From IMG/VR virus record IMGVR_UViG_3300034101_006325, positions 96,001-160,000 of that record: a stretch of 64,000 bases of DNA, one strand, 5' to 3'. Source of the stretch: a virus. Lineage: Duplodnaviria; Caudoviricetes. The notes beneath the pieces were generated by a model. That model worked only from the letters and a program-made list of their open reading frames with translations, ran no database searches and was not told the origin of the DNA. Made by a program: the position numbers and the translations under genes. Numbering within the stretch: the first letter of the stretch is position 1; every line of letters starts with the position of its first letter. Positions 9,015-28,238 of this stretch are shown here, piece after piece.

Positions 9015-9338
9015 TTACTTTTTATCTGCTGGTGGTGCACTCTTTTTAACACTTTGAAGATAGTCACGAAATGCTGCCATCATTACACTTGCATCTACGT
9101 CAGCAAGGGGACCAAGAAGACCTGCCATTGTATCTTTGACTAAATTTTTCTTTTTATCAAGATCTTTAATTTGATCTAGTTTTTGTAAAACTGCTTGTAT
9201 CGGTGCTGATTTGTCCATAGCTGACGCAAATTTAGTTCCTAATGTTCCCATTTTTACAGGAGTTTCAGGATTTTCAGAGAGTGATTTGGAAAGTTCTTCA
9301 CGAATTATTTTTCGAAGCATGGATTCTGTAATTTTCAT
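9015..9338 (-). CDS. Small protein with shared N-terminal MKIT..LR.IIREEL motif
   Basis: 107 aa; SD GAGG. Confidence 0.75.
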   Translation of the reverse strand: MKITESMLRKIIREELSKSLSENPETPVKMGTLGTKFASAMDKSAPIQAVLQKLDQIKDLDKKKNLVKDTMAGLLGPLADVDASVMMAAFRDYLQSVKKSAPPADKK

Positions 9339-9421
9339 ATTTCCTCAGTTATCAAAAACAAAACAACAGTTCATATTTATGTCTCTAAATTAAAAAATAT
9401 TTTTATAATTATGAGAAAATT

Positions 9422-10684
9422 ATGTCAAGTCATAAAAAATCACCAGTCAGCATGTTGCTGAAAAATTTCATAAATGAAGCAAAAACAGGCACGCTGCGGT
9501 TGTTCGACAGCATCTATCAGATGATAGAAGACAAAAAAGAATATTCATCGGACTCTGAAAAGTTCAAAATTTTTATAAATGAACTCATGCCACATTTAAA
9601 TTTATCGGGGAAGAGTTTGAAAAAAGGTTCTTCAAGGATAGTGTTTATGCTTGAAGATAAACAGGTTTTGAAGGTAGCTTTAAACGAGGCAGGTTTTGCA
9701 CAAAATGGAATGGAAGCAACAATTGGAATGGACGATTCTGTCAGTGAAGTTGTTGCTCCTGTGTTGGACACAAGTGATATTGTCGACTACAACGGCTTTT
9801 TATGGATTGTTTCGCAAAAAGTAGAACCGTTAACTGATGATTTAGTTGAAAGAAGTTGGCCTGAATTTTCTGATCTTCTTCGAAAGGCTGCAACAACAAA
9901 TGAAAAAATTGTCGGCATAAAGATGGGTGTAGGCGGCGGTGTGGGTCCTAGGTCTCCTAGCGATGAGAAAACAGTTGTCCCTGGTGAAGAAACAAAAGTA
10001 GAAATTCCACGGGCCGCGGCCAAAAAAATAAAAAGCAAAAATGAAAAAGCAAAATTATCTGCCGAAGCAGAAAAATTACTAAAAAGTCTAGATGAAAACT
10101 TCTTTGAAGCTTTTAGAACTTTCACTAGAAAATATAGAGGAGCTACAACAGCCGACCTTTTGAAGCCAGACTCATGGGGCATCGATAGAGGTAAGTTAAA
10201 GCTTCTAGATTATGGGTATACGAGAAGAATAGCAGAGGATTTCTATGTCAGCGGTCGTCCTACAGGAACCGAAAAAGCAAAAGAAAGCATGATTGCGAGA
10301 AATCAAGAGAGAATACAGAACATTAAATCCACAGTGGCCGACAATATTGATACAATAGAAAATACGAAGAATATTCCTCCAATGGTATCGCTGCTTCTGC
10401 TGGTTCGTGGCGTAGTGGCAGGAATACCTCTCAATATAGAAACATTTGCGGTCGGTAATCCTCTTAAGCCCCTGACGGAAACAGAGAAAGCTACAGCAGC
10501 AGAAGCAATCAGATCCAATCAAGGAAAAGTCGAGAGAATTATTGACATGGTTACTGACTCGTCATTAAAAAATAAATTATATGATGAGCTGGATGATATT
10601 CTCTTAACAACTGGGTCGTTAGGAAAGAAATCACAGAAAGAATCTTTGATTAGAAAATTCGTTCTAGAGTACCTTAAAAATTGA
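9422..10684 (+). CDS. Protein-kinase-like fold protein
   Basis: Glycine loop KGSSRIVF, beta3 VLKVA, alphaC QNGME, catalytic-loop-like ADLLKPDSWG, metal-binding LLDYGY. Confidence 0.65.
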   Translation: MSSHKKSPVSMLLKNFINEAKTGTLRLFDSIYQMIEDKKEYSSDSEKFKIFINELMPHLNLSGKSLKKGSSRIVFMLEDKQVLKVALNEAGFAQNGMEATIGMDDSVSEVVAPVLDTSDIVDYNGFLWIVSQKVEPLTDDLVERSWPEFSDLLRKAATTNEKIVGIKMGVGGGVGPRSPSDEKTVVPGEETKVEIPRAAAKKIKSKNEKAKLSAEAEKLLKSLDENFFEAFRTFTRKYRGATTADLLKPDSWGIDRGKLKLLDYGYTRRIAEDFYVSGRPTGTEKAKESMIARNQERIQNIKSTVADNIDTIENTKNIPPMVSLLLLVRGVVAGIPLNIETFAVGNPLKPLTETEKATAAEAIRSNQGKVERIIDMVTDSSLKNKLYDELDDILLTTGSLGKKSQKESLIRKFVLEYLKN

Positions 10685-11590
10685 TCAGACTGTTGGTTCC
10701 CATTTCTTGATGTCTCTTCGCTTGGCGGAAGCGGCATCAAAGAATATAATTTCGCCTTCTCCCCCTCGAACTCGTCGGACGCCCATGTTGTCCGGCTTGA
10801 AATCGACCATTCCAAGCCTGTAATGATTTTGAATACCTTTAATGAATTTTGTGAACCAATCAGGTGACAATCTGTAGCGTTCTTCAACTACTGCCATCGT
10901 ATCTTTTGGCAGCATTTGTATAAGCTTTGCTACGATGTCTGCAGTCCTTCTGTCAGCAAACTTTGTCGGCACAGCACCCGGCAAGCCCTGATCAGCAGCA
11001 TATGTCGTCATCGCAGTAATCTCTTGAGGAGACATGCCTTGTTTCTTTAGCTTTTTTTCGTAGTCCTTTATTGACTTCTGCTCTTCGGACACAATCTTTG
11101 CTATACCTTCGGAGATCAAACGCCACAAAACTTTCCAATCAGGATCTTCGCCAATTTTATCAGCATCCTGCACCTTCTCAGAGATCGACCATCCGATATT
11201 TCCGATATTGCTCTTGAAGATGCCTGTGGCCAAGACGCCAGGAAGTCCTCCTCCGACGTCAGATCCTGAATATAAGGCATCTTCTATCTCTGATGCCCTT
11301 GAAGCACCAGGCTCAAGCTTTAAGACTTTATCAGAACCCAGAGAAAATGCGCTACCTTGACGTCCAGACCCCAAGTATTTTATGGATCCTTGAGAAAAAA
11401 TTTTTTTCCAATCATCAAAATTGTCTTGTAAAATAGAAAATTCGTCGACATCGAGACCTAACGATCTAAAGACCCTAGATTTTCTAAGTTCATCTCTTAT
11501 TGCTCCCATTTGTAGCTCAGAAAGCTCAGGAGAGTTTGATGTCATCTCAGTCAAGATTGTTCTAATATAACGACGCAATAATTCTGTCAT
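10685..11590 (-). CDS. Protein-kinase-like fold protein
   Basis: YLGSGRQGSAF loop, KVLKL, VDFKPDNMG catalytic loop, IFFDAA. Confidence 0.7.
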   Translation of the reverse strand: MTELLRRYIRTILTEMTSNSPELSELQMGAIRDELRKSRVFRSLGLDVDEFSILQDNFDDWKKIFSQGSIKYLGSGRQGSAFSLGSDKVLKLEPGASRASEIEDALYSGSDVGGGLPGVLATGIFKSNIGNIGWSISEKVQDADKIGEDPDWKVLWRLISEGIAKIVSEEQKSIKDYEKKLKKQGMSPQEITAMTTYAADQGLPGAVPTKFADRRTADIVAKLIQMLPKDTMAVVEERYRLSPDWFTKFIKGIQNHYRLGMVDFKPDNMGVRRVRGGEGEIIFFDAASAKRRDIKKWEPTV

Positions 11591-11646
11591 AACGCTGACA
11601 ATAAAATATCTAATACAATTAGAACTAGAAATCTAATTTTCTTTAA

Positions 11647-12427: not shown

Positions 12428-12459
12428 GCTGACAATAATACAGCATCAAAATATCTTCA

Positions 12460-13017: not shown

Positions 13018-13028
13018 TATTAAATAAA

Positions 13029-14408
13029 TCAAACTGGGCTTTGGTTCACAATGCCAGAAATCCACTGGCCTGAATAAAATTCCTCGACTCTTAGACGGTC
13101 ACCTTTTGAAACTGCAAATGCCACTGCTGCTCCGGCTGCTGCAGAAGTAGAATTTGCAGACTGTCCAGGTACATCATTGCCAGTCGCTGGATCGAATCCT
13201 ACAACAGATCCATCTGATTTTACACCACCAAACCATCCTGTCTTTGTGTAGCCATTACCCATCACATATATCCAATTTGAATTTCCAGGCGTTCCATCAG
13301 GCCAGCCAGACCTTTCCAGCGGTGTCTTGGGTGTGTCGCCATGGACTGTAAAGACTAAATTATCTGCGAGAGTCTTGTTGGAACATGTCGGATCAGAGAT
13401 TCCTGATAAATCACTCATAAACATGTCTAAAATCAATCCTAAATGATCGACAGTCTGCAAGAGGCTGCCCATGTCGGCAAAAGCACCGTGCGGATCATCT
13501 CTAAAAACAGGCGCAATTACACAGGAAGTTAAACCAAGCTTGAATGCCTTTGACGTGGTAATTAAAGTCTTTGCTAGCTCTCTGAGCTTATTAGGTGTAG
13601 AAACTGTAACACCATAACGGGACAGATCATCCTGGGATGGTTCTAATAATGCCGCCAAATTCTTTCCTAGGAAATTAGCACTCTTTTTTCCAATATTTAA
13701 CGGTCGCTGCACAGTGGATCTAGTCGAAGCAGAGTTTAGTCCAAGGAACGCCTTGTAGTATGCTTCAAAAAGTTTGGAATCCTGTTCGACTTCGAGTATT
13801 GAACGACTGGCAGCACTGTTGAACAGCTGAACCATTCCATCAGCATTTCCTACAGTTGTAAGTTGAGGAGAACCGGGCGCAGTGCCAAAGGCAACAGGGG
13901 TAATTCCAATGACAGGAATTAAGGTCGGATTTGCCCTTTGTATCGACGAACAGACGGCCATCATGCTTTGTCCTGCTCCGACGGTTGCAGAAGAACCAGG
14001 CGTCGGTGTGTGAGTCTGGTTTACTCCTGCCATGAAAGCCGATATTCTTTTTGTCCTGTCTTTGTTTTTCCAAGGAGATTGTGGGACATGATACAAGGTT
14101 TTGTCAGCATCGTCTGCCTTGACCTGCTGACCCTGAGCATGAAATGCAAAATTGGAATTTGTGGAAGTTGCAACTTCATTGTGAGGCCAAAGTAGCTGGA
14201 ACCATGCAAAGCCTCCATCACCGGCGACCAAATGGACGGATCTAAGAGTTGTAGAACAAGTGGCTTCGTCGGCCAATGCTGTTCCTGCTGTATCATTAAT
14301 TACGTTGAGAACCTGAGATCTATCAAGAGCCAATGCTGCGCCGGCTGCTGCAGTCCATCTCAAAAATTTTCTTCTAGATTCACCTCGTAAATTCTTTAGA
14401 TCCGACAT
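13029..14408 (-). CDS. Tat-exported protein, DUF1501/DUF1552-type partner of a cytochrome cassette
   Basis: Twin-arginine signal SRRKFLRW followed by hydrophobic AAAGAALAL; last gene of a three-gene operon. Confidence 0.6.
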   Translation of the reverse strand: MSDLKNLRGESRRKFLRWTAAAGAALALDRSQVLNVINDTAGTALADEATCSTTLRSVHLVAGDGGFAWFQLLWPHNEVATSTNSNFAFHAQGQQVKADDADKTLYHVPQSPWKNKDRTKRISAFMAGVNQTHTPTPGSSATVGAGQSMMAVCSSIQRANPTLIPVIGITPVAFGTAPGSPQLTTVGNADGMVQLFNSAASRSILEVEQDSKLFEAYYKAFLGLNSASTRSTVQRPLNIGKKSANFLGKNLAALLEPSQDDLSRYGVTVSTPNKLRELAKTLITTSKAFKLGLTSCVIAPVFRDDPHGAFADMGSLLQTVDHLGLILDMFMSDLSGISDPTCSNKTLADNLVFTVHGDTPKTPLERSGWPDGTPGNSNWIYVMGNGYTKTGWFGGVKSDGSVVGFDPATGNDVPGQSANSTSAAAGAAVAFAVSKGDRLRVEEFYSGQWISGIVNQSPV

Positions 14409-14426
14409 AATTCTTTCCTTTCAATA

Positions 14427-15152
14427 TCACTCGCAAGAATGTGCGGCCGACAATATGACAGCAACAGCTATTGACTTGCCTTTTTCAGGTGTTGAAGCAC
14501 TATTCACAATATCTGTACAAATTGCAAGATGCTGAGAAGTAGCAGGTCTGCCAAGAAGACATGTGACAGCAGGCTCGGTGCACCAATCATTTTGGTCAAA
14601 TACAGAAGTGCCAACACCATCTTCTTGACACTGTTGCAGACCAGGCATGGCTGTAATTATCTCTGATGATGCTTGAACAAAAATATCAAACTGTTTTGCT
14701 GCACCTGAGGACGTCCAAACGATTGACTCTCCCACGCGAGCATCATAAACAGCACCTCCGAGAGCTGCTGATCCTTCAGAAAAAAGCTGTCCTGCAGTTG
14801 GTGGATCTGCTGTTAATGTCATGTTCACACCAAATTCTTCCAGAATATTTCGAAGTGTCGCCACAGGAATCTTCTGACAGGAATGAAGTCTAGTCCTAAT
14901 CTCTGGTGGTCCTTCCTCCTGCCGCTGGGCCAATACTGTCATAGGATCCTTGCTGCCATCTTCACCCAAGCCGGACATATGATCAAATGTATTGTCTTCA
15001 TCACCTGTATAATCATCATCAGGAGGAGGATCTTCAGGGCTATCGACAGGTGGATCTTCCTTTGGTGGAATTAAACCGTTTGGTGGATCAATTCCACAGG
15101 ATGCATTAAGGAAAACCAATGGGAGGATCAAAAATAATCTTTTGTAATTCAT
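14427..15152 (-). CDS. Cys-rich putative lipoprotein
   Basis: Signal peptide MNYKRLFLILPLVFLNAS-C; Pro/Asp linker; multiple Cys. Confidence 0.65.
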   Translation of the reverse strand: MNYKRLFLILPLVFLNASCGIDPPNGLIPPKEDPPVDSPEDPPPDDDYTGDEDNTFDHMSGLGEDGSKDPMTVLAQRQEEGPPEIRTRLHSCQKIPVATLRNILEEFGVNMTLTADPPTAGQLFSEGSAALGGAVYDARVGESIVWTSSGAAKQFDIFVQASSEIITAMPGLQQCQEDGVGTSVFDQNDWCTEPAVTCLLGRPATSQHLAICTDIVNSASTPEKGKSIAVAVILSAAHSCE

Positions 15153-15167
15153 ACTGTTTTACCTGCA

Positions 15168-16334
15168 TCAGAAATTTACGAAATCTTCATGCTTAAACAT
15201 AAAACGAAGTGTCTCCTTGACGTCCATGCCAGATGACTCGTACTTTTTAACGAGAGGATCTAGCACGGAAGGCGGGATTGTCGCAAGGTCATTGACAACG
15301 TCTTCCTTTGACATCACCATGTTCCACAAACGAGTGACCACGCAATCTGAGACAAGAGGATCGTCTGCAATTGCTGCACCTAAGGCAGGAAGATCATTTG
15401 CTTCAATTCCAAACCTCCACGCAGTCTTTTCTCCACCATTCAACCAATGACTCATCTCAGACTTAATAGGATCTGGCAGGACGGGTGTGTTGACCTGACT
15501 TTGGCTCGTCCACATGCCATTTTCATCAAAATTAGCAAACAATGGCGCAATATGGTTCATAGTCGCGTGACAATTGGCACAAACAACGGACTGTGTGTCT
15601 CTAAAATCAATAGGAGAATTAGAAATTGATTCGAACGACCAAGGAGAAATATAATCCTTTCCTTCTATTTTCTGAGGATCTTTTGTGGATTCTGCAGGAA
15701 ACTTTTGACACATAAACACCTCCTGCATCCAACGGACTCTTCTAAATGCCATGTTGCTGTAAAACTGCTTCATCGAACCAGGATTGGTCAAAACACCTGA
15801 ATGAACTTCGACGCCATTATCACAATCCCCATCCACGAAGGCTCCATCTGAAAAGCTGGGACAAGTTCCCTGTGTTGCAGTGAAAATATCTGTAAAAGGC
15901 CGCCCTTCAACGGAAACTCTAGCAACAAATACAGGAGAAAAATCTAATTCTTGGGAACCACCTTGACGAAGAGTATCTCTCCAAAATTTTACCATCCGAC
16001 CAGCAAAGCGAGGATCGTCCAGCAAAGAATCTACTTCTAGTTCATATGCAGCCTTTTTGTCGTCAGCATTTTGAACACGTCTAATTTGACTCAAAGGAGG
16101 AAGTGTCCTGACCAGCTTTAAAGATGCTGTTCTCAATGCAGCATTATAATCCAAAATTCTGTCATCCAAAACGGACGACTTAGCAGACTCACCTCCGACG
16201 CCCGAAGCTGTAGAAGATTCGTCTGCGGTTCCTCCGGGGTCGCCTCCGTAGCTTCCTGTCCCAAATCCTGACGGTTCTTCGGTGCAGGCTGATAAAACCA
16301 AAAAAGACGCCAAATATTTGCATAACCTCTTCAT
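15168..16334 (-). CDS. Putative lipoprotein c-type cytochrome (DUF1549/DUF1553/DUF1588-like)
   Basis: Lipobox LSA-C; heme-attachment motif CANCH (15567-15581); GVLTNPG and AFRRVRW segments. Confidence 0.65.
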   Translation of the reverse strand: MKRLCKYLASFLVLSACTEEPSGFGTGSYGGDPGGTADESSTASGVGGESAKSSVLDDRILDYNAALRTASLKLVRTLPPLSQIRRVQNADDKKAAYELEVDSLLDDPRFAGRMVKFWRDTLRQGGSQELDFSPVFVARVSVEGRPFTDIFTATQGTCPSFSDGAFVDGDCDNGVEVHSGVLTNPGSMKQFYSNMAFRRVRWMQEVFMCQKFPAESTKDPQKIEGKDYISPWSFESISNSPIDFRDTQSVVCANCHATMNHIAPLFANFDENGMWTSQSQVNTPVLPDPIKSEMSHWLNGGEKTAWRFGIEANDLPALGAAIADDPLVSDCVVTRLWNMVMSKEDVVNDLATIPPSVLDPLVKKYESSGMDVKETLRFMFKHEDFVNF

Positions 16335-16846: not shown

Positions 16847-17065
16847 CTACTTCTTCTTTTTCATCGTCTTCTTAGCATCAGCTGTTCCGTGCTTCACGGC
16901 GTCTGCTCTAGGCTCTCCAGAGGCAATTCTTCTGGCAATCATCACGTCTGCAAAATCATTCTTACCGTCTTTATTGAGGTCATCCTTGCCTTCAGCCTCT
17001 GACATCTCAACCTCAGTGACTACCTCTCTAATAATTCTTCTTAATTCGCTTATGCTGATCTTCAT
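16847..17065 (-). CDS. Small protein with shared N-terminal motif and a DxNxDG loop
   Basis: MKISISELRRIIREVVTEV; DLNKDGKNDFAD. Confidence 0.7.
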   Translation of the reverse strand: MKISISELRRIIREVVTEVEMSEAEGKDDLNKDGKNDFADVMIARRIASGEPRADAVKHGTADAKKTMKKKK

Positions 17066-18634: not shown

Positions 18635-20527
18635 TCAGATGATGTTCATGTCAAGCACAGTCACAGTTCCGTAGAAGTCGCTACGAACTGTCTTCTTACC
18701 GTAGCGAGTCATCACGCCCTTACGTGGTGTGAAATCTTCAGGTGCGAAGATTGTTGGTGTCACGATGAGTGGAACGTATGGTGCGTACACGTAGCCTGTC
18801 TCGAGGTAGCTGCCGCCCTTGTAGCCAACGAGGATCTTGTTACGAACGAAGTAGGGATCCTTGTAGACCGTGAAGCGGTTGCTGATTGTGCCGATTGCCT
18901 CTGCACCGATTGTGAATGGTGAAGCAACCTGACCCTCGCCGTCGATCGAGAACTTGGGCTTGTAGAGGACCGAGCTCTCGAGGATTGTTGCAACGTCTGG
19001 GCCTGTGACGAGGAAGTTCGCCGAGCCGCGGAGTGTCTTGCGGTGGATTGTGTTGGCGACGTCGATGATTGTCTCGACGAGTGTCTCGTACCACTCACGG
19101 ACTGTACCTGTGAAGGCTGGGCCGATTGAGAGGGCCGAGGCGAGCGAGACCGATTGACCTGTTGTCTTGTTCACGAATTTGCCGGGAGCGCGTGACCAGT
19201 AGTAGTTGGCGCCGTTGGCCTGTGTGACGAGGTCGTTGAGGATCTCGCGATCGATCTCGAGGGCGATCTGCTCCGAGAGGATCGAGGTGAGCTCAACCTC
19301 TGCGTCCATCGAGTGATAGGCGTTGAGGTCCTGTGCGAGCTCTGGTGACCAGCGAGCACGGAGCTTGCGGGTCTCGGCTGTGATTGCAATCGACTCGATC
19401 TTGATGTCGATCTCGGGGATTGCAGGAGCAGGTGTTGAACCAAAGTCCGACTCGAACGATGGAACTGTGACTGTTGCTCCGCTGTTCTGATCAACAGTGA
19501 GACCTGTTGAGATGGCGAACGAGAGCTTTGCGGTCGCTGTTGTTGGAAGGTTTGTGGCTCCATTTGCGCCCTTGAGGAGGAACTGGAGGTAGTTGCCGTT
19601 GAGTGCGTCTGGGACGAACTTGAGGCTTGCACCTGTTCCTGTGAGTGTTCCGCGCTTGTTTGCGCGGCGGAGGTTGAGCACACCTGTTCCACCTTGGTAA
19701 CTGTCTCCCCATGCTGTTGCATTTGTCACCGCGCCGTTGAAGAGCGAGAACTGCTGAACTGCAGTGAGGTCAGCTGCTGGCTCTGCTGCAACAACAACTG
19801 ATGTTGGCACGTAGAGGAAGAGAACGTCGAGGTCGTTGTTTGTGAGGGCTGTCTCGACCTGAGCATCGAAGTCCACCAAGCGAGCGTTTGATCCACTGAA
19901 TGATGTTCCGAGTCCAAGCACCGTGCCATCCGACCATGTTGTTCCATCTGCACCGAGGTATGAACCCGAGTAGACTGTTCCTACTGTGAGGTCGAGTGGC
20001 GAAACCGAACCTGTGACGCGTGAGTAACCTGTGCCAACGAGATCGTACATACCGCCTGTTGCGAGCGATCCGCTCTGCACGCCTTTGCCGCGTGGATTGT
20101 TATAGATCGAATCACCGCGTGTGTATGTCGAGTTGGTGTCGCCTGCAACCTGACCAACATTGCTGCCGTATGTATAGTCGAGGTAGAAGATGAGTCCTGA
20201 GGGGAGGCTCATTGGCTGGATCGAAACGAGCTCGTTGGCAACGAGGCCACCGAACACGCGGCGAACGATTGGGAAGGCGATGTTGCTGAAGCCTTGAATC
20301 TGTCCGCTGCCAACGATGTTGCCGCCGCCGGTCGAGAGAGCATTGCTCTCCTTAAGGACCTGTGCTGCCTGGTTCTCGAGGAGCTGTGCCATTGTCTCGC
20401 GGCGTGAGCCGTCGAGGCCACGGAGGAGGCCTGTGCGGCTCCACTTCTCTGTCAAACGGGCGCGCTCAGCACCGACGTGCTTCTCGCGGATGCCCTGTGC
20501 TAACTGATCTAATGTAAAGTTCTTCAT
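18635..20527 (-). CDS. gp23: Major capsid protein, T4 gp23-like
   Basis: AQLLENQ; FPIVRRVF..LVANELVSIQPM..PSGLIFYLDY; AETRKLRARWSPELAQDLNAYH..DAE.ELTSILSEQIALEIDREI; YAPYVPL; PRKGVMTRYG; SD AGGAG; long central insertion. Confidence 0.95.
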   Translation of the reverse strand: MKNFTLDQLAQGIREKHVGAERARLTEKWSRTGLLRGLDGSRRETMAQLLENQAAQVLKESNALSTGGGNIVGSGQIQGFSNIAFPIVRRVFGGLVANELVSIQPMSLPSGLIFYLDYTYGSNVGQVAGDTNSTYTRGDSIYNNPRGKGVQSGSLATGGMYDLVGTGYSRVTGSVSPLDLTVGTVYSGSYLGADGTTWSDGTVLGLGTSFSGSNARLVDFDAQVETALTNNDLDVLFLYVPTSVVVAAEPAADLTAVQQFSLFNGAVTNATAWGDSYQGGTGVLNLRRANKRGTLTGTGASLKFVPDALNGNYLQFLLKGANGATNLPTTATAKLSFAISTGLTVDQNSGATVTVPSFESDFGSTPAPAIPEIDIKIESIAITAETRKLRARWSPELAQDLNAYHSMDAEVELTSILSEQIALEIDREILNDLVTQANGANYYWSRAPGKFVNKTTGQSVSLASALSIGPAFTGTVREWYETLVETIIDVANTIHRKTLRGSANFLVTGPDVATILESSVLYKPKFSIDGEGQVASPFTIGAEAIGTISNRFTVYKDPYFVRNKILVGYKGGSYLETGYVYAPYVPLIVTPTIFAPEDFTPRKGVMTRYGKKTVRSDFYGTVTVLDMNII

Positions 20528-20583: not shown

Positions 20584-22491
20584 TCACTTGAGTCCAGCAA
20601 GCTTGGCCCAGCGATCAGCCTCGAAGCCCTCGTTGAGGACTGTTGAAGCAGCGCGGGTTGGGGCTGATGATGATCCAACCACTCGATTCTTTGATCCTTC
20701 TGAGAGAGAAGCGCGTGAGGATCCGGCGAGCGTCTTGACGAGGCTCTCATAAACGAGCTTAACTTCTCTTTCGGTCTTTGCTTCATCGAGGCGTTCGATC
20801 ACATCTGCCTTCTGGCGCTTTGTGAGCGACTCGTTCTGGAGTAGCTTGTTGGTGTACAGCAATTTCATGTTGAACAGATTCGTTTCCGCCAACTTCTTGC
20901 GGAGATTATCGGAGTCTCCAGCTTCCCGCTTCTGGTTGCCATTAAGGCTTTCACCACTGCGCTTGTTTGTTTCAGCAAGCATTGTCTGAAGCTTAGCAAT
21001 GCGTCGGACCGACTCATTGTATTGAGAAGCGAAGTGATTATATGCCTCATGCATTTTATCCTTCTTCTTCTTTGCTTCAGCTTTTTCTTTCACGGATTTA
21101 GCAGCCTTTTCATCCTTGGCAGCCTTCTCCTTAAGCTTCTTGGCCTTCATTGCCTTGTCCTTAGCAGCCTTCTTCTTCTTGGCTTCTGCTACGAGTTTTG
21201 CCTCGAGCGTCTCCTTGACAGGCTGGCGGGCTTGACCATTTGACTGGTCTAGATCTCTTCCATGGTTTCCGCCGTATTCTGCAACGTCATCGGCTTCTTC
21301 CATGTCGCCTGCATGATCGGCTTCTTCCATGTCGCCTGCATAATCAGATTCTGACATATCGTCGCCTTCACCCATGTCTTCACCTTCTGTAGTGAGGTCG
21401 ACCTCGAGCGCATCCATCTCTTCTTCTGAAAAATCATCAGAAACCTCGCCAGCTCCGTGGCCCCACGACTGCACGTCATCTGCAGCCTCGCGAAGCATCT
21501 TCATGCGGCTAATTTCTCTCTTGAGCATTTTCTCGTCAATTTCAACAATGACGTCGTCGCTGAGTCTAAGTGACTCTTTGACACCAGGGACTGAAGGCAT
21601 TGACATTTCTTCAACTTCCTCTTCACCTTCTTCGTCATCGCCTTCATCTTCCTCTTCGCCTGCAGGAGCTTCTTCTTCTCCTTCTTCAGCGTCAAGGTCG
21701 AGATCGCCTTCGCCCTCGTCACCTTCAGCAGATTCTTCTCCTTCATCAGGAACTATTTCGAGATCTGCTTTTGCGAGTGCATCAGTAATTGCGTCGACGG
21801 CTTCTTCGGGAAGATCGTCGCCAAGATCGAGTTTAAATGTTAATCCGGTTTCTGTCAATCTGTTTTTCATATTTTGCTCCGTGAGCTGGTTGAGGTCCTT
21901 GTATAATTTTTCTAACTTATTTTCGTACAGTCCTTTGGAGTCTTCATCAACGACAGTCTCCTGAAGGGTCTGATAGAGGTTCTCGACCTCCGAGACCATC
22001 TCGGAGACGATTTTATTGTAGGATGGAGTCTGTCTGAGGGATTTTGATGCCTCAAGCAGTTCTCCTAATTTAGTCTCAATAGCTGAGACATTTAAAGAAA
22101 TTCTAGAAATTGCCGATTCCTTAATCTTATCGACGAGGGGTTTGAGCAATTTCTTAGACTCCATGCTAACAACAAATTCATTGTCACCCGTTGGTTGAAC
22201 GCATGGTTCCATGTCACTAGGTTGCTGATCATAGACTGATTGTATTTCGCTTCCTGCGTCCAAAGATTCTGTGGGATCATATCCAAATAAAAGTTTTTCA
22301 TCTTTACCTTCAGCATCACCCACAGATTCTTCGGTGTCTCCTTCTTCAACCTCACGAAGAAGCTCAGCCTCAATTAAATCTTTAATGCGAGGTGCAACGG
22401 CTTCGATTAATGCTTTTTTTGCATTATCTTCCGCAATCTCTTTGATCTTCTTTACGTCGGCTAAAGCTTCTTCGTATAGTTGCTTAGTCAT
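20584..22491 (-). CDS. Prohead core / scaffolding protein
   Basis: Directly upstream of gp23; acidic low-complexity plus coiled-coil; many (L/I/V)-x-E sites; C-terminal NLFN.KLLY.NKL and RWAKLAGL. Confidence 0.8.
   Translation of the reverse strand: MTKQLYEEALADVKKIKEIAEDNAKKALIEAVAPRIKDLIEAELLREVEEGDTEESVGDAEGKDEKLLFGYDPTESLDAGSEIQSVYDQQPSDMEPCVQPTGDNEFVVSMESKKLLKPLVDKIKESAISRISLNVSAIETKLGELLEASKSLRQTPSYNKIVSEMVSEVENLYQTLQETVVDEDSKGLYENKLEKLYKDLNQLTEQNMKNRLTETGLTFKLDLGDDLPEEAVDAITDALAKADLEIVPDEGEESAEGDEGEGDLDLDAEEGEEEAPAGEEEDEGDDEEGEEEVEEMSMPSVPGVKESLRLSDDVIVEIDEKMLKREISRMKMLREAADDVQSWGHGAGEVSDDFSEEEMDALEVDLTTEGEDMGEGDDMSESDYAGDMEEADHAGDMEEADDVAEYGGNHGRDLDQSNGQARQPVKETLEAKLVAEAKKKKAAKDKAMKAKKLKEKAAKDEKAAKSVKEKAEAKKKKDKMHEAYNHFASQYNESVRRIAKLQTMLAETNKRSGESLNGNQKREAGDSDNLRKKLAETNLFNMKLLYTNKLLQNESLTKRQKADVIERLDEAKTEREVKLVYESLVKTLAGSSRASLSEGSKNRVVGSSSAPTRAASTVLNEGFEADRWAKLAGLK
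21289..21342. repeat. 27-bp tandem repeat x2 inside the scaffold gene
   Basis: ATCGGCTTCTTCCATGTCGCCTGCAT(G/A) twice; encodes (Y/H)AGDMEEAD. Confidence 0.9.
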
Positions 22492-22536
22492 TTTTACAAA
22501 ACCTCTTTTATCTTTTAACTATTGGCCAAATTCAAA

Positions 22537-23025: not shown

Positions 23026-23068
23026 AAAAACTCACTTTCACGGCATTGTCTGCCACAGATAATATCTA

Positions 23069-23314
23069 TCAAAGACTACGAGCAACTCTCTTGCGAGTTT
23101 CAACAACTTTTTCAAGTCTACGACGAAGTCTGCCTTCTTCGATCTTGAGAGCCTTCATATAATCCAACTTCTTCTCAAGCGACTTATCTGAACCAAATTC
23201 ATCGGCATCAACTTCTTCTGCGTCTTTTGCACGATCCTCAGTCGATTCCATGTCTCCGAACTTAGCAACTTCTTCCATTATTATCTGCTTGAGCAATTGA
23301 CTTGTTAATTTCAT
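23069..23314 (-). CDS. Small head-module protein with shared N-terminal motif
   Basis: ATG 23314 with SD GGAG; MKLTSQLLKQIIMEEV. Confidence 0.75.
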   Translation of the reverse strand: MKLTSQLLKQIIMEEVAKFGDMESTEDRAKDAEEVDADEFGSDKSLEKKLDYMKALKIEEGRLRRRLEKVVETRKRVARSL

Positions 23315-23397
23315 TGTTAAAAATCTCCGTAACAACTTTTGTAATTATCAGCCACACCGAAAAAAAAATAAAAAATTTATATTTGATAACTCAGAAA

Positions 23398-23856
23398 CTA
23401 CTTTTTTATAGGATCCATGAAAGCCAAAGCAGCCCATTTTGAAGCAGCCTCTTCGCCAAAAAGTTGATCTGGGGTGGCCGCAGCAACAAGTCTTTCGACA
23501 GTTCCTGTGGGAGGCAATGGCGATGTTTTAGAACGATCACTTTCTAACATTGTTTGAAGTGTATTAGACGCAGTATCAGCAAGTATATCGGCCATTACGC
23601 TGTTTCCACCTGCTTCTCTTTTTATTGCTTCTTTTATAGCATCTTGCGACAAGTTGCTGGGTGCCAATTTTGTTCTTGACGCTGACTGCTGCAAAACTGT
23701 TGAAATTGAAGGCTGCATTGCTTTGGTCGAGGACGACCTTTGTGTTTTTTTCAAAGTTTCATTAAGAGCTGCTGCATTTTGACCAATTCCTTCGGCAAGA
23801 ATTTCAACCAGACATTCTTTTACAATTAACTTTAATTGATTTTTTGTAATTCCCAT
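23398..23856 (-). CDS. Head-module protein with shared N-terminal motif
   Basis: ATG 23856; MGITKNQLKLIVKECLVEILAE. Confidence 0.75.
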   Translation of the reverse strand: MGITKNQLKLIVKECLVEILAEGIGQNAAALNETLKKTQRSSSTKAMQPSISTVLQQSASRTKLAPSNLSQDAIKEAIKREAGGNSVMADILADTASNTLQTMLESDRSKTSPLPPTGTVERLVAAATPDQLFGEEAASKWAALAFMDPIKK

Positions 23857-23858
23857 TG

Positions 23859-24266: not shown

Positions 24267-24272
24267 TGTTGC

Positions 24273-24887
24273 TCAGTCCTTTCCTTTAGAAGAAATAATA
24301 TCATTTAATATTCTGTCTATCCTGTCAGACTTATTAAAAACTTTTCTAAGCTCATCTGAGCCTATTTTCTTGCCTTCAGGAAGCATAAAAGCTCCAGGGG
24401 TCGATGGTTCAGAAACATAGTCCCAACAAATTAGCTGAAAGTCGTCTTGGACTACAAAATAATCTCCTTGTTTTTTTGTCGAACCCACACCTCTCGATGA
24501 AATTCCTAATTTGACGCCACTTTCAACAAGAGACTGTAGAATTTTACCAGAAGGTGTATCAAGAAGTTCAACGGTGCCATACACGACGCCACTATCTAAA
24601 TAAGCTTCTTTGACAATATGAGAGACATTTTTAAGATTGACGACAGAGGAGTCGGGATGATCAAGTTCTCCCAAAGCTCTATTTTCAACAATAAATTTTT
24701 GATAATTTCTTACTTCTCTTTGAAGAACATCAAGTGGGTAAATTCTTCCATTCTGATTTAAAGTATCTGCTTTTTGCAGTATACCTTTCATTATAACTTT
24801 ACCGTTATTTTTCTCTCTAGACTCCTTAATCATTTCAGGAGTATAGTCAAAAACTTCATATGAATTTAAAAGTCTTAAATCTTTCAT
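24273..24887 (-). CDS. gp21: Prohead core protein protease, T4 gp21-like
   Basis: N.NGRIYP; ALGELDHP; NLKNVSH; LLDTPSGKIL; GISSRGVGS; DFQLICWDYVSEPSTPGA. Confidence 0.95.
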   Translation of the reverse strand: MKDLRLLNSYEVFDYTPEMIKESREKNNGKVIMKGILQKADTLNQNGRIYPLDVLQREVRNYQKFIVENRALGELDHPDSSVVNLKNVSHIVKEAYLDSGVVYGTVELLDTPSGKILQSLVESGVKLGISSRGVGSTKKQGDYFVVQDDFQLICWDYVSEPSTPGAFMLPEGKKIGSDELRKVFNKSDRIDRILNDIISSKGKD

Positions 24888-25753
24888 TGTTTGTCTCCTT
24901 CATCTCCTGAAAGTTCTTGTTTCAATGATGAGTAAAGCATGAACCTTGACACAGAAGAATCATCAATGACATCAAGAGACTCAGAAAGCATCTGTGATTT
25001 TGCCATATTTAACTTCTGAATAACGTAAGTATTTTCTGGATTTGATGAAATGTAAGAATCCATTGAATTTAACAAGTCTATTCTAATCTCTTCCAGTTTC
25101 TTCTTTATTGTTGTTTGATCGTCATTTGCTGTAGAAAATGCATATGAACGAATTATTTCTTTTTGATCGGAATTCAATGAATTTGAATATTTTTCATTGA
25201 GCTTTTTCATCATGACTTTCATCAACAATCTAGACGTTCCTGGGGAATCATCGTTTACCGAAAGATCTACCGACTTTTTCTCTGACAACAGCCAAATTCT
25301 AAGTTGATCTTCATATTTTCCTAGTGCTGCAATGTCGGCACTGCCCGGTGTTTTTCTCCACTCATTCAACAGAGTTTGTATTGAAGCATACATTTTATAT
25401 TCAGCAATCGGCTGATCATAAAAATTATCGTCCTTAATCATGTGATTTATGCTTCTTATCAACAAAGATTTTTCTCTGTCTAGCTCTGTTAAGTTGGCAG
25501 AAGAAGCAGCAGCTCTAGCCTCATTAATTATTGTTGATGAAACAGAGTCGGAAGAAACTGTCGTTTTCAACAATGCATTAAAAAGTCTAAATTCCTTATA
25601 AAGTTGCGTGCCAGGCTTATAATATTTTTTCAGTATCCTAAGCGCTGTAGATGACTTTTTCTTGTCGCCCTCCACCAGGGCAGCCGAAATTGTCCTTACT
25701 AAGAACTCGTATAGCAGCGCAGTATTACGCTTCTTATTGTGGGATTTTGACAT
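24884..25753 (-). CDS. Hypothetical helical protein between portal and protease
   Basis: 289 aa, begins SHNKKRNTALLYEFLVR; stop/start overlap with gp21. Confidence 0.75.
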   Translation of the reverse strand: MSKSHNKKRNTALLYEFLVRTISAALVEGDKKKSSTALRILKKYYKPGTQLYKEFRLFNALLKTTVSSDSVSSTIINEARAAASSANLTELDREKSLLIRSINHMIKDDNFYDQPIAEYKMYASIQTLLNEWRKTPGSADIAALGKYEDQLRIWLLSEKKSVDLSVNDDSPGTSRLLMKVMMKKLNEKYSNSLNSDQKEIIRSYAFSTANDDQTTIKKKLEEIRIDLLNSMDSYISSNPENTYVIQKLNMAKSQMLSESLDVIDDSSVSRFMLYSSLKQELSGDEGDKQ

Positions 25754-25758
25754 CTTTT

Positions 25759-27828
25759 TTACCTCTCGAATTCACTATTATTAATTAAGTTTCTGATAGA
25801 ATCAATACTGTCATCTTGCGTTAAATTTTCTTCATTTTCACTTAGAATTTTTTTATCATTTTTTTGAATATCAATCTTTGTAGATAAATTTCTTAGAGCT
25901 GACATCACATCTGGCGGTAAAGAAGTTTTTGTTCTGCTAGAATATGAGTTTGATTCTTTGAGCGGATTTTTAGCAACTGACTTCAAATAATCGGCTCCTA
26001 TAGGATCTTGTCTTTGCAAAGATTTAATGCCTGTCATATCGACAAAGTCAGGCATGTGGGTTTCTCTAGAACCCCCTCTTCCTAAAGTTCTTCTTCTTGC
26101 CCTGTTTCTTTTATTCTTAAATAATTGATTTGTTGCCTTAACTGGTGCATCATCTTTTTCGTACAATGGTGCAATAAAATCTTCATCGTCAGGATTGTCA
26201 GCTGACATTAAAAGCTCTAGATCACTTTCATTTGGATCGTCTGCTGGATCATCGGATGCGAATAGATCTTCTTCGCCTCCTTTTTCTCCTTCTTTTCCTG
26301 CTGGTTTCTCTTCTTTTTCAGTCTCTTCGCCTCCGCCGCCTCCACCGAATAAATCTTCTTCTCCTTCACCTCCAGAAGATTCACCACCTTCAGCAGAACC
26401 TGACTCACTGCCAATAGCATTTTCAATTTCTTGATCAATGAGTTTTTCTTTGTATCTTTGCGCGTCGATTTCTTCAATTTCTTCGTCTGTAAGTCCCCAG
26501 ATCTTCTTACGAACAAATTGTTTGCTTCCCATTCCCTCTGGGACTGATCCAGCAATTTCAAACTTGGCTCTCCAAAGTTCAAGCTTCTGCTGTTGTGCTA
26601 CTGTTGATGGATTAGAGAGGTGCAGGGTAAAGTTCTGTAAATCTTCAGAATCAAAGCCATTGGAATATAGATGGATTATTGCAAGTTTATTTAATTCAGC
26701 AAGAAGAACCTTCTGAATAACGTTGATGGTTCTGGAAAAACGAATATCTTCTTGGGCTAAAGTAGCCTTGGATGAAAGCATTTCGTCGTAGCCAAGATAT
26801 GCCCTTGGTATCTTTAAAGCTGCGAAAAGCTTTTTTTGAATGTAAGCAACGTCTTCGACGGCAGCAGCATTTTGACCTCCGGCCAGAGTATCAATTTTCG
26901 TACCGCTATCACCGCCTCGAACAGGAATAAAATAATCATCCTCTATCGAAAGCGGAGCATATCGAAGATCAAGTCTACCTGTTGCCCTATCGACAACCTG
27001 GTTAGTCCTTAGATTCTTTCTCTGTTCTTCAACATACATTGGAACGTTTTCAGGTGGTATGTTGGCAACATCAATATAAAAGACTCTACGTTCAGGAGCA
27101 CGTACTACACGATATACCAACATAGCGTCCTCAATAAGGATCAATTGTCGCCAGATGCGGCGAGCTGGTTCGATTACTGATGATCCATAAGGAAGAAACA
27201 TATCATTGCCAAGAAGTCTAAAGTGTGTAACTTCCCAGTTTTCAAGTGTTCTATTACCAAGAGTAACCCATCGATAACGAACTGCAAAAGGATCATTAGG
27301 GTCATAGTTCTCCTCCCGCTCTATTTCATTTACAGGTATTGGGAAAGCATTTACGACGCCATACTGCGGGGAAACGTCATTGTAGAGAAAGAAATCTCCA
27401 TATTTGACGAGATTGCGTGCCCATGAGCGGAGATTAAACTCAACATTGAGCGTATTATAGAAGAGATCTTCGAGTATTTCTTTAATCTTTTCGTTATCAG
27501 AATAGACATGAAGGACACGCCCTTTGTCATCCTGCGCGACAGTTTCATCTGCGTAGATATCCATTGCAGCAGCAATTTCAGGAGTATACTCCATCTCTGC
27601 GAAATCCTGATATCTCATCAAACGTTCTGATAAGTTATAAGCATTTGCTGTTATTGTTGCGTATGTCGGTGCAAGAGACTTTTGAAAAAGTAAGGCGCCG
27701 CTGCTTTTGGTTTTATCAGCAACAGCAACTGCTGTATCCAAAGTTCGTATTTTTCTCTTTACGACTGGTCCGCTTCTAAAAAGCTTGGTTAATCTTTGGA
27801 ACAGCGACTGTGGTTCTTTTTTGGACAT
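25759..27828 (-). CDS. gp20: Portal protein, T4 gp20-like, with a long acidic C-terminal extension
   Basis: PEIAAAMDIYADE; RNLVKYGDFF; LIEDAMLVYRVVRAPERRVFYIDV.N.P; EDDYFIPVRG; IDTLAGG; YIQKKLFAALKIP. Confidence 0.95.
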   Translation of the reverse strand: MSKKEPQSLFQRLTKLFRSGPVVKRKIRTLDTAVAVADKTKSSGALLFQKSLAPTYATITANAYNLSERLMRYQDFAEMEYTPEIAAAMDIYADETVAQDDKGRVLHVYSDNEKIKEILEDLFYNTLNVEFNLRSWARNLVKYGDFFLYNDVSPQYGVVNAFPIPVNEIEREENYDPNDPFAVRYRWVTLGNRTLENWEVTHFRLLGNDMFLPYGSSVIEPARRIWRQLILIEDAMLVYRVVRAPERRVFYIDVANIPPENVPMYVEEQRKNLRTNQVVDRATGRLDLRYAPLSIEDDYFIPVRGGDSGTKIDTLAGGQNAAAVEDVAYIQKKLFAALKIPRAYLGYDEMLSSKATLAQEDIRFSRTINVIQKVLLAELNKLAIIHLYSNGFDSEDLQNFTLHLSNPSTVAQQQKLELWRAKFEIAGSVPEGMGSKQFVRKKIWGLTDEEIEEIDAQRYKEKLIDQEIENAIGSESGSAEGGESSGGEGEEDLFGGGGGGEETEKEEKPAGKEGEKGGEEDLFASDDPADDPNESDLELLMSADNPDDEDFIAPLYEKDDAPVKATNQLFKNKRNRARRRTLGRGGSRETHMPDFVDMTGIKSLQRQDPIGADYLKSVAKNPLKESNSYSSRTKTSLPPDVMSALRNLSTKIDIQKNDKKILSENEENLTQDDSIDSIRNLINNSEFER

Positions 27829-27896
27829 GTTATTTGCTCGCCTATTTAAGGACAGCTCTTTAAATACTAAATTAAAAATTCAATTTGTTATAATTT

Positions 27897-28238
27897 CTAC
27901 ACAACTTTCTTGCTTGGCTTCACAAGAATTTTTTTGGCAGCTGGTTTAACTTCTGGTTTTTGCTCTACTTTAATAAATGAATCAGACGTATCGGCAACTT
28001 TTTTTACCTCGTCGACGACGTCTTGAAGAAGTTTAGGAAGAGTTGTCTTTGATTCATCAAATGACATTAATTCATCCTTTAAAACATTGTTTTGAAAGTC
28101 TTCAACGGCCTTCAACAACCCTGCCAAGGAAACTTTTAATTGTCCTGATGCTTTGAGTGCTGTAGCATTATTTTCATTTAGCTTTTTAAATTCTTCAGCA
28201 ATCAATGTTTCTAAAAGTTTTTTTGTTAGCTTTGGCAT
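27897..28238 (-). CDS. Small protein with shared N-terminal motif
   Basis: MPKLTKKLLETLIAEEF; SD AGAGG. Confidence 0.75.
   Translation of the reverse strand: MPKLTKKLLETLIAEEFKKLNENNATALKASGQLKVSLAGLLKAVEDFQNNVLKDELMSFDESKTTLPKLLQDVVDEVKKVADTSDSFIKVEQKPEVKPAAKKILVKPSKKVV

What the first reader, a model, noticed from the sequence alone, without database searches (positions are those of the whole stretch)
9015..28238. Shared N-terminal helix on unrelated proteins: a candidate capsid-targeting signal
Six otherwise dissimilar ORFs start with the same amphipathic pattern: MKITESMLRKIIREEL (9338), MTELLRRYIRTILTEM (11590, kinase), MKISISELRRIIREVVTEV (17065), MKLTSQLLKQIIMEEV (23314), MGITKNQLKLIVKECLVEIL (23856) and MPKLTKKLLETLIAEEF (28238). 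Similar helices occur in the scaffold (IDEKMLKREISRM), at the C-terminus of the other kinase (ESLIRKFVLEYL) and in the edge ORF (LRLFIREQI). Most contain (I/L/V)-x-E, the T4 gp21 cleavage pattern. T4 internal proteins use an N-terminal capsid-targeting sequence that gp21 removes. Inference: this is a portable tag that loads cargo, including kinases, into the prohead for injection.
Basis: partly seen in the sequence, partly recalled or inferred. Interest (0 to 1): 0.75.

Follow-up and report, generated by a model that had tools for sequence, protein, structure and literature searches.

The report
Shared capsid-targeting-like leaders on phage proteins
An uncultured T4-related phage puts one of two short N-terminal "address labels", each ending in the cut site of its head-maturation protease, on many unrelated proteins including a kinase-like enzyme; this most likely loads them into the capsid as T4 does with its internal proteins, and the same labels occur on thousands of metagenomic phage proteins, but no experiment shows packaging.

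Summary
Four of the six N-termini (9338, 17065, 23314, 23856) carry a ~22-residue leader, MK(I/L)TxxQL(K/R)x(I/L)I(K/R)EE…h-x-E. The kinase-like protein (11590) carries a second, 14-residue leader, M-x-LLR-x-YIR-x-LL-x-E. The 28238 N-terminus and the "similar helices" in the scaffold, the other kinase's C-terminus and the edge ORF score no better than background.

The 200-kb record holds 11 type-1 and 2 type-2 leader genes with unrelated bodies. Conservation is at the peptide level, not the DNA level. Both leaders are widespread in uncultured T4-like phage contigs. A type-1 profile finds 12,687 protein clusters, and cellular genomes hold almost none.

Contigs bearing the type-1 leader nearly always encode a gp21-type (S77) prohead protease when they are at least 57% complete. 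One leader-bearing protein is a conserved head-module gene next to the protease. (L/I)-x-E sites are most over-represented in the scaffold and a neighbouring core-like protein.

The best reading is a T4 CTS-like prohead-targeting and processing tag (about 0.6). Packaging, cleavage and injection are all inferred. First readers of this scan noted the same IIKEE leader on other genomes, and I found no paper describing it. It is a new variant of a known kind.

The parts
9015..9338 (-). 107-aa cargo gene with a type-1 leader (codons 1-22, nt 9273-9338; MKITESMLRKIIREELSKSLSE, ending in L-S-E)
   Evidence: 41.6 bits with profile A1, E 1.7e-11. The body has only 2 homologues in 5.8 billion proteins and no Pfam or PHROG family.
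10685..11590 (-). 301-aa protein-kinase-like cargo gene with a type-2 leader (codons 1-15, nt 11546-11590; MTELLRRYIRTILTE, ending in L-T-E)
   Evidence: The type-2 profile gives 13.7 bits against 4.0 or less for proteins other than the two type-2 genes. In family alignment A3 the GSG..G, K91, D263-x-K-P-x-N268 and F284-D285 residues are invariant and the leaders are swapped between orthologues. AF2 model pLDDT is 83. Foldseek top hits are APH(2'') and PknB, E 3e-4.
16847..17065 (-). 72-aa cargo gene with a type-1 leader (nt 17000-17065)
   Evidence: 33.5 bits, E 6.3e-9. It lies downstream of the MCP and a homing-endonuclease gene.
23069..23314 (-). 81-aa head-module gene with a type-1 leader (nt 23249-23314)
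   Evidence: 34.5 bits. Orthologues sit in the same position in relatives G012, G016 and G023.
23398..23856 (-). 152-aa conserved head-module protein shortly downstream of the protease gene, with a leader variant (…LKLIVKECLVEILAEG; nt 23791-23856)
   Evidence: Orthologues lie downstream of the protease in all 5 near-complete relatives examined, and the N-terminal LK..hhKEC..E..E residues are invariant. Those of G001, G012, G016 and G023 match the general leader profile at E around 1e-5 per genome. A counterpart is present in cultured Microcystis phage Mel-JY01.
24273..24887 (-). gp21-type prohead serine protease (Peptidase_S77), the presumed processing enzyme
   Evidence: Pfam PF03420, E 1.4e-24. 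It is 31% identical to T4 gp21, with the ELDHP, ISSRG and D-Y-V motifs aligned to T4's ELNHP, VSSRG and D-A-V.
24884..25753 (-). 289-aa conserved protein between portal and protease (the position of T4 gp67/gp68); candidate prohead core protein
   Evidence: It has the highest excess of [LI]-x-E sites in the genome: 10 observed against 3.3 in shuffles, z 4.4. It is conserved in 33 of 120 related loci. It has no Pfam or PHROG family.
20584..22491 (-). 635-aa acidic scaffold-like protein upstream of the MCP; presumed binding platform and protease substrate
   Evidence: It has 23 [LI]-x-E sites against 12.3 in shuffles, and 0 of 1000 shuffles reach that number. The N-terminus, C-terminus and a middle island are conserved among relatives.
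18635..20527 (-). Gp23-type major capsid protein; the predicted propeptide covers about the first 51-60 codons (nt 20348-20527)
   Evidence: Pfam Gp23, E 1.6e-77. Alignment to the mature T4 gp23* chain places mature residue 1 near query residue 55, flanked by L-L-E51 and L-K-E60.
25759..27828 (-). Portal protein
   Evidence: phrog_213 portal, E 2.4e-72.
27897..28238 (-).
   Evidence: 1.8 bits with A1. The syntenic ORF in relative G016 has a different N-terminus.
9422..10684 (+). 420-aa second kinase-like ORF with no supported leader at either end
   Evidence: It is not detected by either profile. It matches phrog_4301 of unknown function. Its Atlas neighbours include clusters in which 12-17% (by features) or 51% (one structural match, TM 0.33) of members carry kinase families.

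Best explanation
The two leaders are lineage-specific counterparts of the phage T4 capsid targeting sequence (CTS).

Each is a short amphipathic helix. It is inferred to attach the protein to the scaffolding core of the assembling prohead. It ends in hydrophobic-x-Glu, where the gp21-type S77 protease is inferred to cut it off and free the body inside the head.

The type-1 leader is about 22 residues, with the h-x-E at positions 20-22 and a second I-(K/R)-E at 12-14. The type-2 leader is 14 residues, with L-x-E at positions 12-14.

The cargo is a large and fast-changing set of mostly small, soluble proteins of unknown function. It includes a protein-kinase-like enzyme. Some of these proteins are presumably ejected into the host with the DNA.

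What is shown: the leaders exist, are recurrent and are selected at the peptide level. They sit on unrelated bodies, are phage-restricted, go together with an S77 protease, and occur on a conserved head-module protein.

What is inferred: binding to the core, cleavage, packaging and injection.
For: 1. Recurrence is far above chance, and the copies sit at ORF starts.
2. Upstream DNA is unrelated and codons vary synonymously, so selection acts on the peptide.
3. The bodies are unrelated. Pfam finds only scattered single hits among the 72 longest cargo proteins.
4. Conservation stops at hydrophobic-x-Glu. In type 1, position 20 is L/M/I/V in 87 of 165 and position 22 is E in 73 of 165, followed by G/D/P-rich sequence. 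In type 2, nothing after E14 exceeds 26%. T4 gp21 cuts after L/I-x-E (PMC9026906).
5. The S77 protease is present here and in 10 of the 11 type-1 contigs tested that are at least 57% complete.
6. [LI]-x-E excess is among the highest in the genome for the scaffold and for the protein between portal and protease (ranks 3 and 1 of 190), as expected for T4-style core degradation. The MCP has L-x-E at the position aligned to the T4 gp23 cleavage site.
7. A conserved head-module protein shortly downstream of the protease gene carries the leader in every relative examined.
8. In long contigs, leader genes lie near head genes in 7 of 28 loci against about 1.8 expected.
9. Orthologues of the kinase-like body carry different or tandem leaders.
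10. Some proteins carry 2-3 leader copies, including internal ones without Met, each followed by h-x-E. This fits a position-independent bind-and-cut module.
11. The leaders are virtually absent from cellular genomes: 16 stretches in 596 Gb, 15 of them on MAG contigs that look like mis-binned phage.
12. No other enzyme recurs next to the leader genes.
Against: There is no proteomic, biochemical or genetic evidence for any member. No cultured phage with these leaders was found.

There is no sequence similarity to the T4 CTS MKTYQEFIAE.

The cargo bodies are mostly acidic: pI<6 in 104 of 156 type-1 and 60 of 80 type-2 proteins. The T4 internal proteins are basic (PMC9026906).

Seven of the 11 type-1 genes in this record lie among nucleotide-metabolism and replication genes rather than in the head module, so their timing is unknown. 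No T4-type late promoter was found.

The head-gene neighbourhood signal is inflated by how short viral contigs are recognised: 26 of 42 small contigs carry head genes.

L/I-x-E is a short motif and is common in K/E-rich helices.
Confidence: 0.6

Rival explanations
1. The leaders are a recognition or oligomerisation helix for some other partner. This could be a phage chaperone, a modifying enzyme, a host target, or self-association as a coiled coil. Capsid loading would not be involved, and the terminal h-x-E would be incidental.
For: Amphipathic K/E-rich helices often mediate protein-protein contacts. Many leader genes lie outside structural modules. The cargo is mostly acidic. An earlier case in this scan (e1-127136) showed that a shared phage N-terminal tag can belong to a radical-SAM enzyme rather than to the capsid.
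Against: No enzyme or other non-head family recurs beside the leader genes. The commonest neighbours are portal, terminase, the 289-aa protein and the protease. A conserved head-module protein bears the leader. Conservation ends exactly at h-x-E in two unrelated leader types. The leaders go together with an S77 protease.
Confidence: 0.22
2. The leader does target proteins to the prohead core, but the bearers are assembly-only core or scaffold accessories. They are degraded and expelled like T4 gp67 and gp68, and are not cargo delivered to the host.
For: The two head-module bearers (23314, 23856) lie in the head module downstream of the protease and contain further [LI]-x-E sites. The scaffold and the 289-aa protein are rich in such sites.
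Against: Relatives have 4-26 type-1 leader matches per genome, with hypervariable, mostly singleton bodies. These include enzyme-like folds: kinase-like, AAA_33 and ParB-like nuclease. That is hard to reconcile with a purely structural assembly role.
Confidence: 0.1
3. The similarity is a nucleic-acid-level feature. It could be a shared translation-initiation or expression cassette, or a recombination hotspot that shuffles gene starts. Alternatively it is a compositional or chance effect.
For: AAA-rich second codons favour expression. T4-type genomes shuffle small genes.
Against: Upstream DNA is unrelated, and the leader codons differ synonymously between copies. Internal copies without Met exist. 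Profile scores are 10-43 bits against 4.9 or less for background. There are 12,687 clusters at library-wide E<=0.001.
Confidence: 0.03

Closest known systems
Phage T4 capsid targeting sequence (CTS) of internal proteins IPII/IPIII (MKTYQEFIAE), IPI and Alt, removed by gp21 (Mullaney & Black 1996, as reviewed in PMC9026906, PMC5694885, PMC3012670)
   Same: Both are short N-terminal peptides shared by otherwise unrelated proteins. Both end in L/I-x-E. The genome encodes a homologous S77 prohead protease, a gp23-type MCP and an acidic scaffold. The bearers are small and diverse, and their genes are scattered.
   Different: There is no sequence similarity to the T4 CTS, of which T4 has two exact copies. 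The leaders are longer: about 22 and 14 residues against 10. Two distinct leader types coexist in one genome. There are 13 bearers in this partial genome and up to 26 type-1 matches in relatives, against about 4 in T4. The bodies are mostly acidic. Tandem and internal copies occur. Function is untested.
N-terminal propeptides of T4 shell and core proteins (gp24 MAKINELLRE; gp23 cut after ...L-T-E65; gp22, gp67 and gp68 cut into fragments)
   Same: The same protease logic applies. The type-2 leader ends in L-(T/K)-E, like the gp23 site read from the T4 record. The scaffold and a core-like protein here are enriched in [LI]-x-E.
   Different: Those are propeptides of essential structural proteins and are not portable tags. 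The MCP N-terminus here resembles the type-1 leader only by eye and is not detected by the profile.
Long propeptides of ejection and inner-body proteins of giant phages phiKZ, 201phi2-1 and SPN3US (cleaved at S/A-x-E by gp175/gp245; PMC5694885, PMC9026906)
   Same: A gp21-related protease removes N-terminal propeptides that are inferred to target many head-internal proteins. SPN3US gp53 and gp54 share an identical 15-residue N-terminus.
   Different: Those propeptides are mostly over 100 residues, lie within paralogue families, and have MS-verified cleavage. Here the tags are short, sit on unrelated bodies, and are unverified.
Cargo-loading peptides of encapsulins (own knowledge; not tested here)
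   Same: A short portable peptide directs diverse cargo into an HK97-fold shell.
   Different: Those peptides are C-terminal, bind the shell directly and are not removed. There is no protease, and the compartments are cellular.

Membership tests
T4-type capsid-targeting (CTS) / prohead-protease propeptide system | A short N-terminal peptide shared by otherwise unrelated proteins of one phage | tested here: met
   There are 11 type-1 and 2 type-2 bearers with unrelated bodies.
T4-type capsid-targeting (CTS) / prohead-protease propeptide system | The tag ends in the protease cleavage motif L/I-x-E, and similarity stops there | tested here: met
   Type 2 has L12-x-E14 and then no conservation. 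Type 1 has I12-(K/R)-E14 and h20-x-E22, followed by G/D/P-rich sequence. This is sequence-level evidence only.
T4-type capsid-targeting (CTS) / prohead-protease propeptide system | The genome encodes a gp21-type (Peptidase_S77) prohead protease with catalytic residues, plus a gp23-type MCP and a scaffold | tested here: met
   The protease is also present in 10 of 11 type-1 leader-bearing contigs that are at least 57% complete.
T4-type capsid-targeting (CTS) / prohead-protease propeptide system | Sequence homology of the tag to the T4 CTS (MKTYQEFIAE) | tested here: not met
   The T4 CTS was read from the T4 record. There is no similarity beyond the initial M-K and the terminal h-x-E. The leaders are analogous, not demonstrably homologous.
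T4-type capsid-targeting (CTS) / prohead-protease propeptide system | The tag is necessary and sufficient for incorporation into the prohead core | not testable with these tools
   This needs fusion and packaging assays in a cultivable host-phage pair.
T4-type capsid-targeting (CTS) / prohead-protease propeptide system | The tag is removed by the protease, and the mature body is present in virions and ejected | not testable with these tools
   No virion proteome exists for any bearer. The cultured relatives lack clear copies of the general leader.
T4-type capsid-targeting (CTS) / prohead-protease propeptide system | The cargo are small basic DNA-associated proteins, as IPI-III are | tested here: not met
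   The bodies are mostly acidic. This is a property of the T4 IPs rather than of the targeting mechanism.
Protein-kinase-like superfamily (for ORF 10685-11590) | Gly-rich loop, catalytic Lys, D-x-K-P-x-N catalytic loop and a DFG-like Asp, all conserved across the family | tested here: met
   G74-S75-G76..G79, K91, D263/K265/P266/N268 and F284-D285 are invariant in 28 sequences.
Protein-kinase-like superfamily (for ORF 10685-11590) | Bilobal kinase fold | tested here: met
   The AF2 model has pLDDT 83 and pTM 0.73. Foldseek PDB top hits are APH(2'') and PknB with prob 0.95-1.0 and E about 3e-4, but TM is only about 0.25.
Protein-kinase-like superfamily (for ORF 10685-11590) | Match to a curated kinase family model (Pfam Pkinase, APH or Phage_T7_kinase) | tested here: not met
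   There is no Pfam hit at E<=0.1. Atlas neighbours carry kinase families in only 12-17% of members.

The most novel reading that the evidence does not exclude
The two leaders are distinct addresses of a general capsid-loading code used across the uncultured Far-T4-like phages, in genomes of about 150-480 kb. A profile of the type-1 tag alone lists at least 12,687 protein clusters. That would make it a ready-made catalogue of proteins these phages pack into the head and deliver to hosts. The catalogue would include protein-kinase-like enzymes and multi-cargo polyproteins that the prohead protease cuts apart at internal leaders.
Probability: 0.35. Interest if true: 0.8.

Novelty: new variant of a known kind. 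Interest (0 to 1): 0.62.

Why it matters
T4 packs only a handful of CTS-tagged proteins, and at least one of them (IPI) is an anti-restriction weapon. If these leaders work the same way, a simple sequence profile would identify thousands of candidate virion-delivered effectors in abundant, uncultured freshwater and marine phages. These would include kinase-like enzymes and many ORFans. It would give a rational entry point to an otherwise unannotatable gene pool, such as anti-defence or host-takeover factors. It would also provide new, longer targeting tags for protein packaging. Finally, it would show that the CTS principle is general and expandable, with two tags, tandem tags and polyproteins, rather than being a T-even peculiarity.

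Tried and rejected
- T4-type late promoter TATAAATA: 9 genome-wide copies, none upstream of a gene start. Inspection of intergenic regions gave no clear shared promoter, so expression timing is unresolved.
- tblastn of a 25-aa leader against 50,697 cultured-phage records: no match. Short queries are near the detection limit, so this is weak evidence of absence.
- Leader profile on Mel-JY01, Flavobacterium phage immuto and RM378: only marginal hits.
- Homologue search with the 107-aa cargo: 2 hits. This was useless for tracing the leader.
- Pfam and PHROGs on cargo bodies of this genome: nothing above the curated cut-offs.
- Search for a co-occurring modifying enzyme, prompted by the radical-SAM precedent in e1-127136: none found.
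- Head-gene neighbourhood enrichment: largely an ascertainment effect in short viral contigs. Only the long-contig figure is used.
- Literature searches for the motif strings, for CTS in metagenomic T4-like phages, for Mel-JY01 and for Far-T4: no description of these leaders.
- Structure-based complex prediction of the scaffold with the conserved leader-bearing head protein: 'no answer'. It counts neither for nor against binding.
All are rejected as unsupported.

Full report
**Context.** The window is bases 96001-160000 of a single 200,303-bp viral record that CheckV rates 61% complete. It encodes a Gp23-type major capsid protein at 18635-20527 (Pfam E 1.6e-77) and a Peptidase_S77 gp21-type prohead protease at 24273-24887 (E 1.4e-24). 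It also encodes a portal, an ORF at 28279-29880 whose orthologues sit beside the portal in relatives and which I read as the large terminase, and a 635-aa acidic scaffold-like protein. The protease is 31% identical to T4 gp21, with the His, Ser and Asp motifs aligned. The nearest records by MCP are an uncultured 484-kb phage (48%), Flavobacterium phage immuto (45%), Microcystis phage Mel-JY01 (36%) and Rhodothermus phage RM378 (31%). This places it in the 'Far-T4' neighbourhood described by Roux et al. (PMC4360716). That placement is an inference from similarity only.

**Checking the observation.** All six N-termini are present as quoted. A regex and then an HMM over all six frames of the whole record found nine strong copies at 19-34 bits. 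All sit at ORF starts on the coding strand, and noise is at or below 4.6 bits.

A profile built mainly from other contigs (A1) finds ten copies in this record at E<=0.006. Scored against N-terminal versus internal segments, ten N-termini reach 10-43 bits, while the best of 733 internal segments reaches 4.9. In the window the type-1 members start at 9338, 17065, 23314 and 23856. Seven more lie upstream of the window.

Upstream DNA is unrelated and the leader codons vary synonymously. The bodies show no mutual similarity. So the shared element is a peptide under selection, placed on unrelated proteins.

**A second leader.** The kinase-like ORF (11590) and the 28238 ORF are not detected by the type-1 profile. 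However, the kinase N-terminus (MTELLRRYIRTILTE) resembles another ORF of the record (MSDVLRQYIQEMILE) and three adjacent ORFs of a related contig.

A pattern scan of IMG/VR then returned 73 loci with 132 matches, in arrays of up to seven. The consensus is M-(N/K)-LLREYIRELL-(T/K)-E. At least three of these contigs also carry type 1.

A profile from 87 external copies scores the kinase at 13.7 bits and the other ORF at 14.0, against 4.0 or less for everything else. The 28238 N-terminus, the scaffold segment, the C-terminus of the 420-aa protein and the edge ORF remain unsupported.

**Breadth.**
- A 31-column profile against 1.84 billion cluster representatives gives 12,687 proteins at library-wide E<=0.001.
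- In 596 Gb of cellular genomes there are only 16 stretches. Fifteen are on MAG contigs with arrays typical of mis-binned phage, and one is a single copy in an isolate.
- Near-complete relatives carry 4-26 type-1 matches each.
- The 484-kb record LR756508.1 has at least 14 N-terminal variants of the form M(K/R)L(T/S)ERKLR(K/R)IVKEEI..VL-x-E.
- 147 type-1 proteins from the IMG/VR loci fall into 131 clusters, of which 109 are singletons.
- Only scattered Pfam domains occur among the 72 longest: AAA_33, ParB-like nuclease, FliG_C, EF-hand and two DUFs.
- The cargo is soluble, with TM-like segments in 3 of 156 and 1 of 80. It is mostly acidic.

**Link to head assembly and proteolysis.**
1. Conservation ends at hydrophobic-x-Glu in both leaders. 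In type 1, position 20 is L/M/I/V in 87 of 165 and position 22 is E in 73 of 165, followed by G/D/P-rich sequence. In type 2, L12-x-E14 is followed by no conservation. T4 gp21 cuts after L/I-x-E (PMC9026906).
2. An S77 protease is present in 19 of 35 type-1 leader-bearing contigs, and in 10 of the 11 that are at least 57% complete. All contigs are fragments of large genomes.
3. Among 190 proteins of this record, the composition-corrected excess of [LI]-x-E is highest in the 289-aa protein between portal and protease (10 sites against 3.3; z 4.4). The scaffold ranks third (23 against 12.3; 0 of 1000 shuffles reach it). This is what T4-style degradation of core proteins predicts.
4. Alignment to the mature T4 gp23* chain puts the MCP maturation site near residue 55, between L-L-E51 and L-K-E60.
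5. The 152-aa protein shortly downstream of the protease gene (23398-23856) is conserved in all five relatives examined. Its N-terminus is an invariant leader variant (…KECLVEIL-x-EG), and in four of those relatives it matches the general leader profile at E around 1e-5. A counterpart exists in cultured Mel-JY01.
6. Leader genes lie near head genes more often than expected. Most of this signal comes from short contigs, which are recognised as viral through hallmark genes. In contigs of at least 50 kb the figure is 7 of 28 against about 1.8 expected.
7. No other enzyme family recurs next to leader genes.

**Portability.** The kinase-like family (28 sequences) keeps its body but changes its head. 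Close relatives have type-2-like leaders. More distant ones have a type-1 leader followed by a type-2-like segment, for example MKLT..QLR.IIKEE…LRKLISEMIE. Others have only a short version.

Some database proteins hold two or three leader copies, each followed by h-x-E. These include internal copies without a Met. This fits a position-independent bind-and-cut module and possible polyprotein cargo. It does not fit a translation-start or N-end signal.

**The kinase claim.** Pfam gives no hit. However, the Gly-rich loop, the Lys, the D-x-K-P-x-N loop and the FFD motif are invariant. The AF2 model is confident, with pLDDT 83 and the leader forming a separate N-terminal helix. Foldseek's best PDB matches are aminoglycoside phosphotransferases and PknB, with prob of about 1 but low TM. 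Atlas neighbours include minority kinase families. 'Protein-kinase-like' is justified, but the substrate is unknown. The second, 420-aa kinase-like ORF has no supported leader.

**Interpretation.** The most economical explanation is a lineage-specific analogue of the T4 CTS. In T4, the CTS is a 10-residue peptide that targets IPs into the scaffolding core and is removed by gp21 (PMC9026906, PMC5694885, PMC3012670). T4 has two exact copies of MKTYQEFIAE. Its gp24 and gp23 are cut after L-R-E and L-T-E according to the literature, and both motifs are visible in the T4 record.

The leaders here share no sequence with the T4 CTS. There are two types, both longer than the T4 tag and far more numerous, and they sit on mostly acidic bodies.

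Nothing here shows binding, cleavage, packaging or ejection. Seven of the 11 type-1 genes lie among replication and nucleotide-metabolism genes, and I could not establish their timing. I put the CTS-like reading at about 0.6. A different partner for the helix gets about 0.2, an assembly-only core role about 0.1, and nucleic-acid-level or chance explanations are negligible for the core set.

**Novelty.** The principle is known, and the T4 literature already suggests that the CTS lets T4-like phages load varied proteins (PMC9026906). I found no paper describing these two leaders. First readers of this scan noted the same IIKEE leader and its h-x-E end on other genomes. Analogous leaders with other sequences have been reported by this scan in many T4-like genomes. 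I class it as a new variant of a known kind. Its value lies mainly in its scale and in offering a testable catalogue of candidate virion-delivered proteins.

Noticed in passing
window 17089-18522 (-): A 477-aa HNH/homing-endonuclease gene (phrog_3339/559, E about 1e-66) sits directly downstream of the MCP gene. T4 has segD in the same position after gene 23.
   Followed up: partly
window 21450-21530 (-), scaffold residues ~320-340: A short island, VEI(D/N)E..L(K/R)RE(I/L)..(R/K)M, is conserved among scaffold proteins of four relatives, inside an otherwise hypervariable acidic region. It looks leader-like by eye but is not detected by the leader profile. It could be a docking or processing site.
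   Followed up: partly
window 20480-20527 (-), MCP N-terminus: The MCP N-termini of this lineage (MK.FT(L/I)DQLAQGI(R/K)E…; MSFTL(D/N)(K/Q)LTEGIRQR…) share a T-x-x-Q-L-x-x-x-I-(R/K)-(E/Q) spacing with the type-1 leader. The similarity is below profile significance.
   Followed up: partly
P0036, P0051, P0055: These metagenomic proteins hold 2-3 leader copies in one ORF, some internal and lacking Met. They may be polyprotein cargo, or fusions of neighbouring array genes.
   Followed up: partly
L132:8198-8479, L136:15389-15631, L128:9143-9370 (Mel-JY01, annotated RpsU): Small ribosomal-protein-S21-like genes are embedded in the head module, between the protease and the scaffold, in several relatives. 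No counterpart was seen at that position in this window.
   Followed up: no
L225:4782-5024 (T4 gene 67): T4 prohead core protein gp67 contains …IDLIKEEK…, which resembles the IIKEE core of the type-1 leader. The match is too short to evaluate.
   Followed up: no
window 13029-16334 (-): This is a host-like envelope cassette: a Tat-signal protein and two lipoproteins. It was already flagged by another first-reader note (e1-5404032) and is unrelated to the leaders.
   Followed up: no
L136:6752-8119 and the 23-, 20- and 15-locus clusters: In marine relatives, arrays of leader genes are often followed by two or three small membrane proteins (holin-like by appearance) just upstream of the terminase gene.
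   Followed up: no
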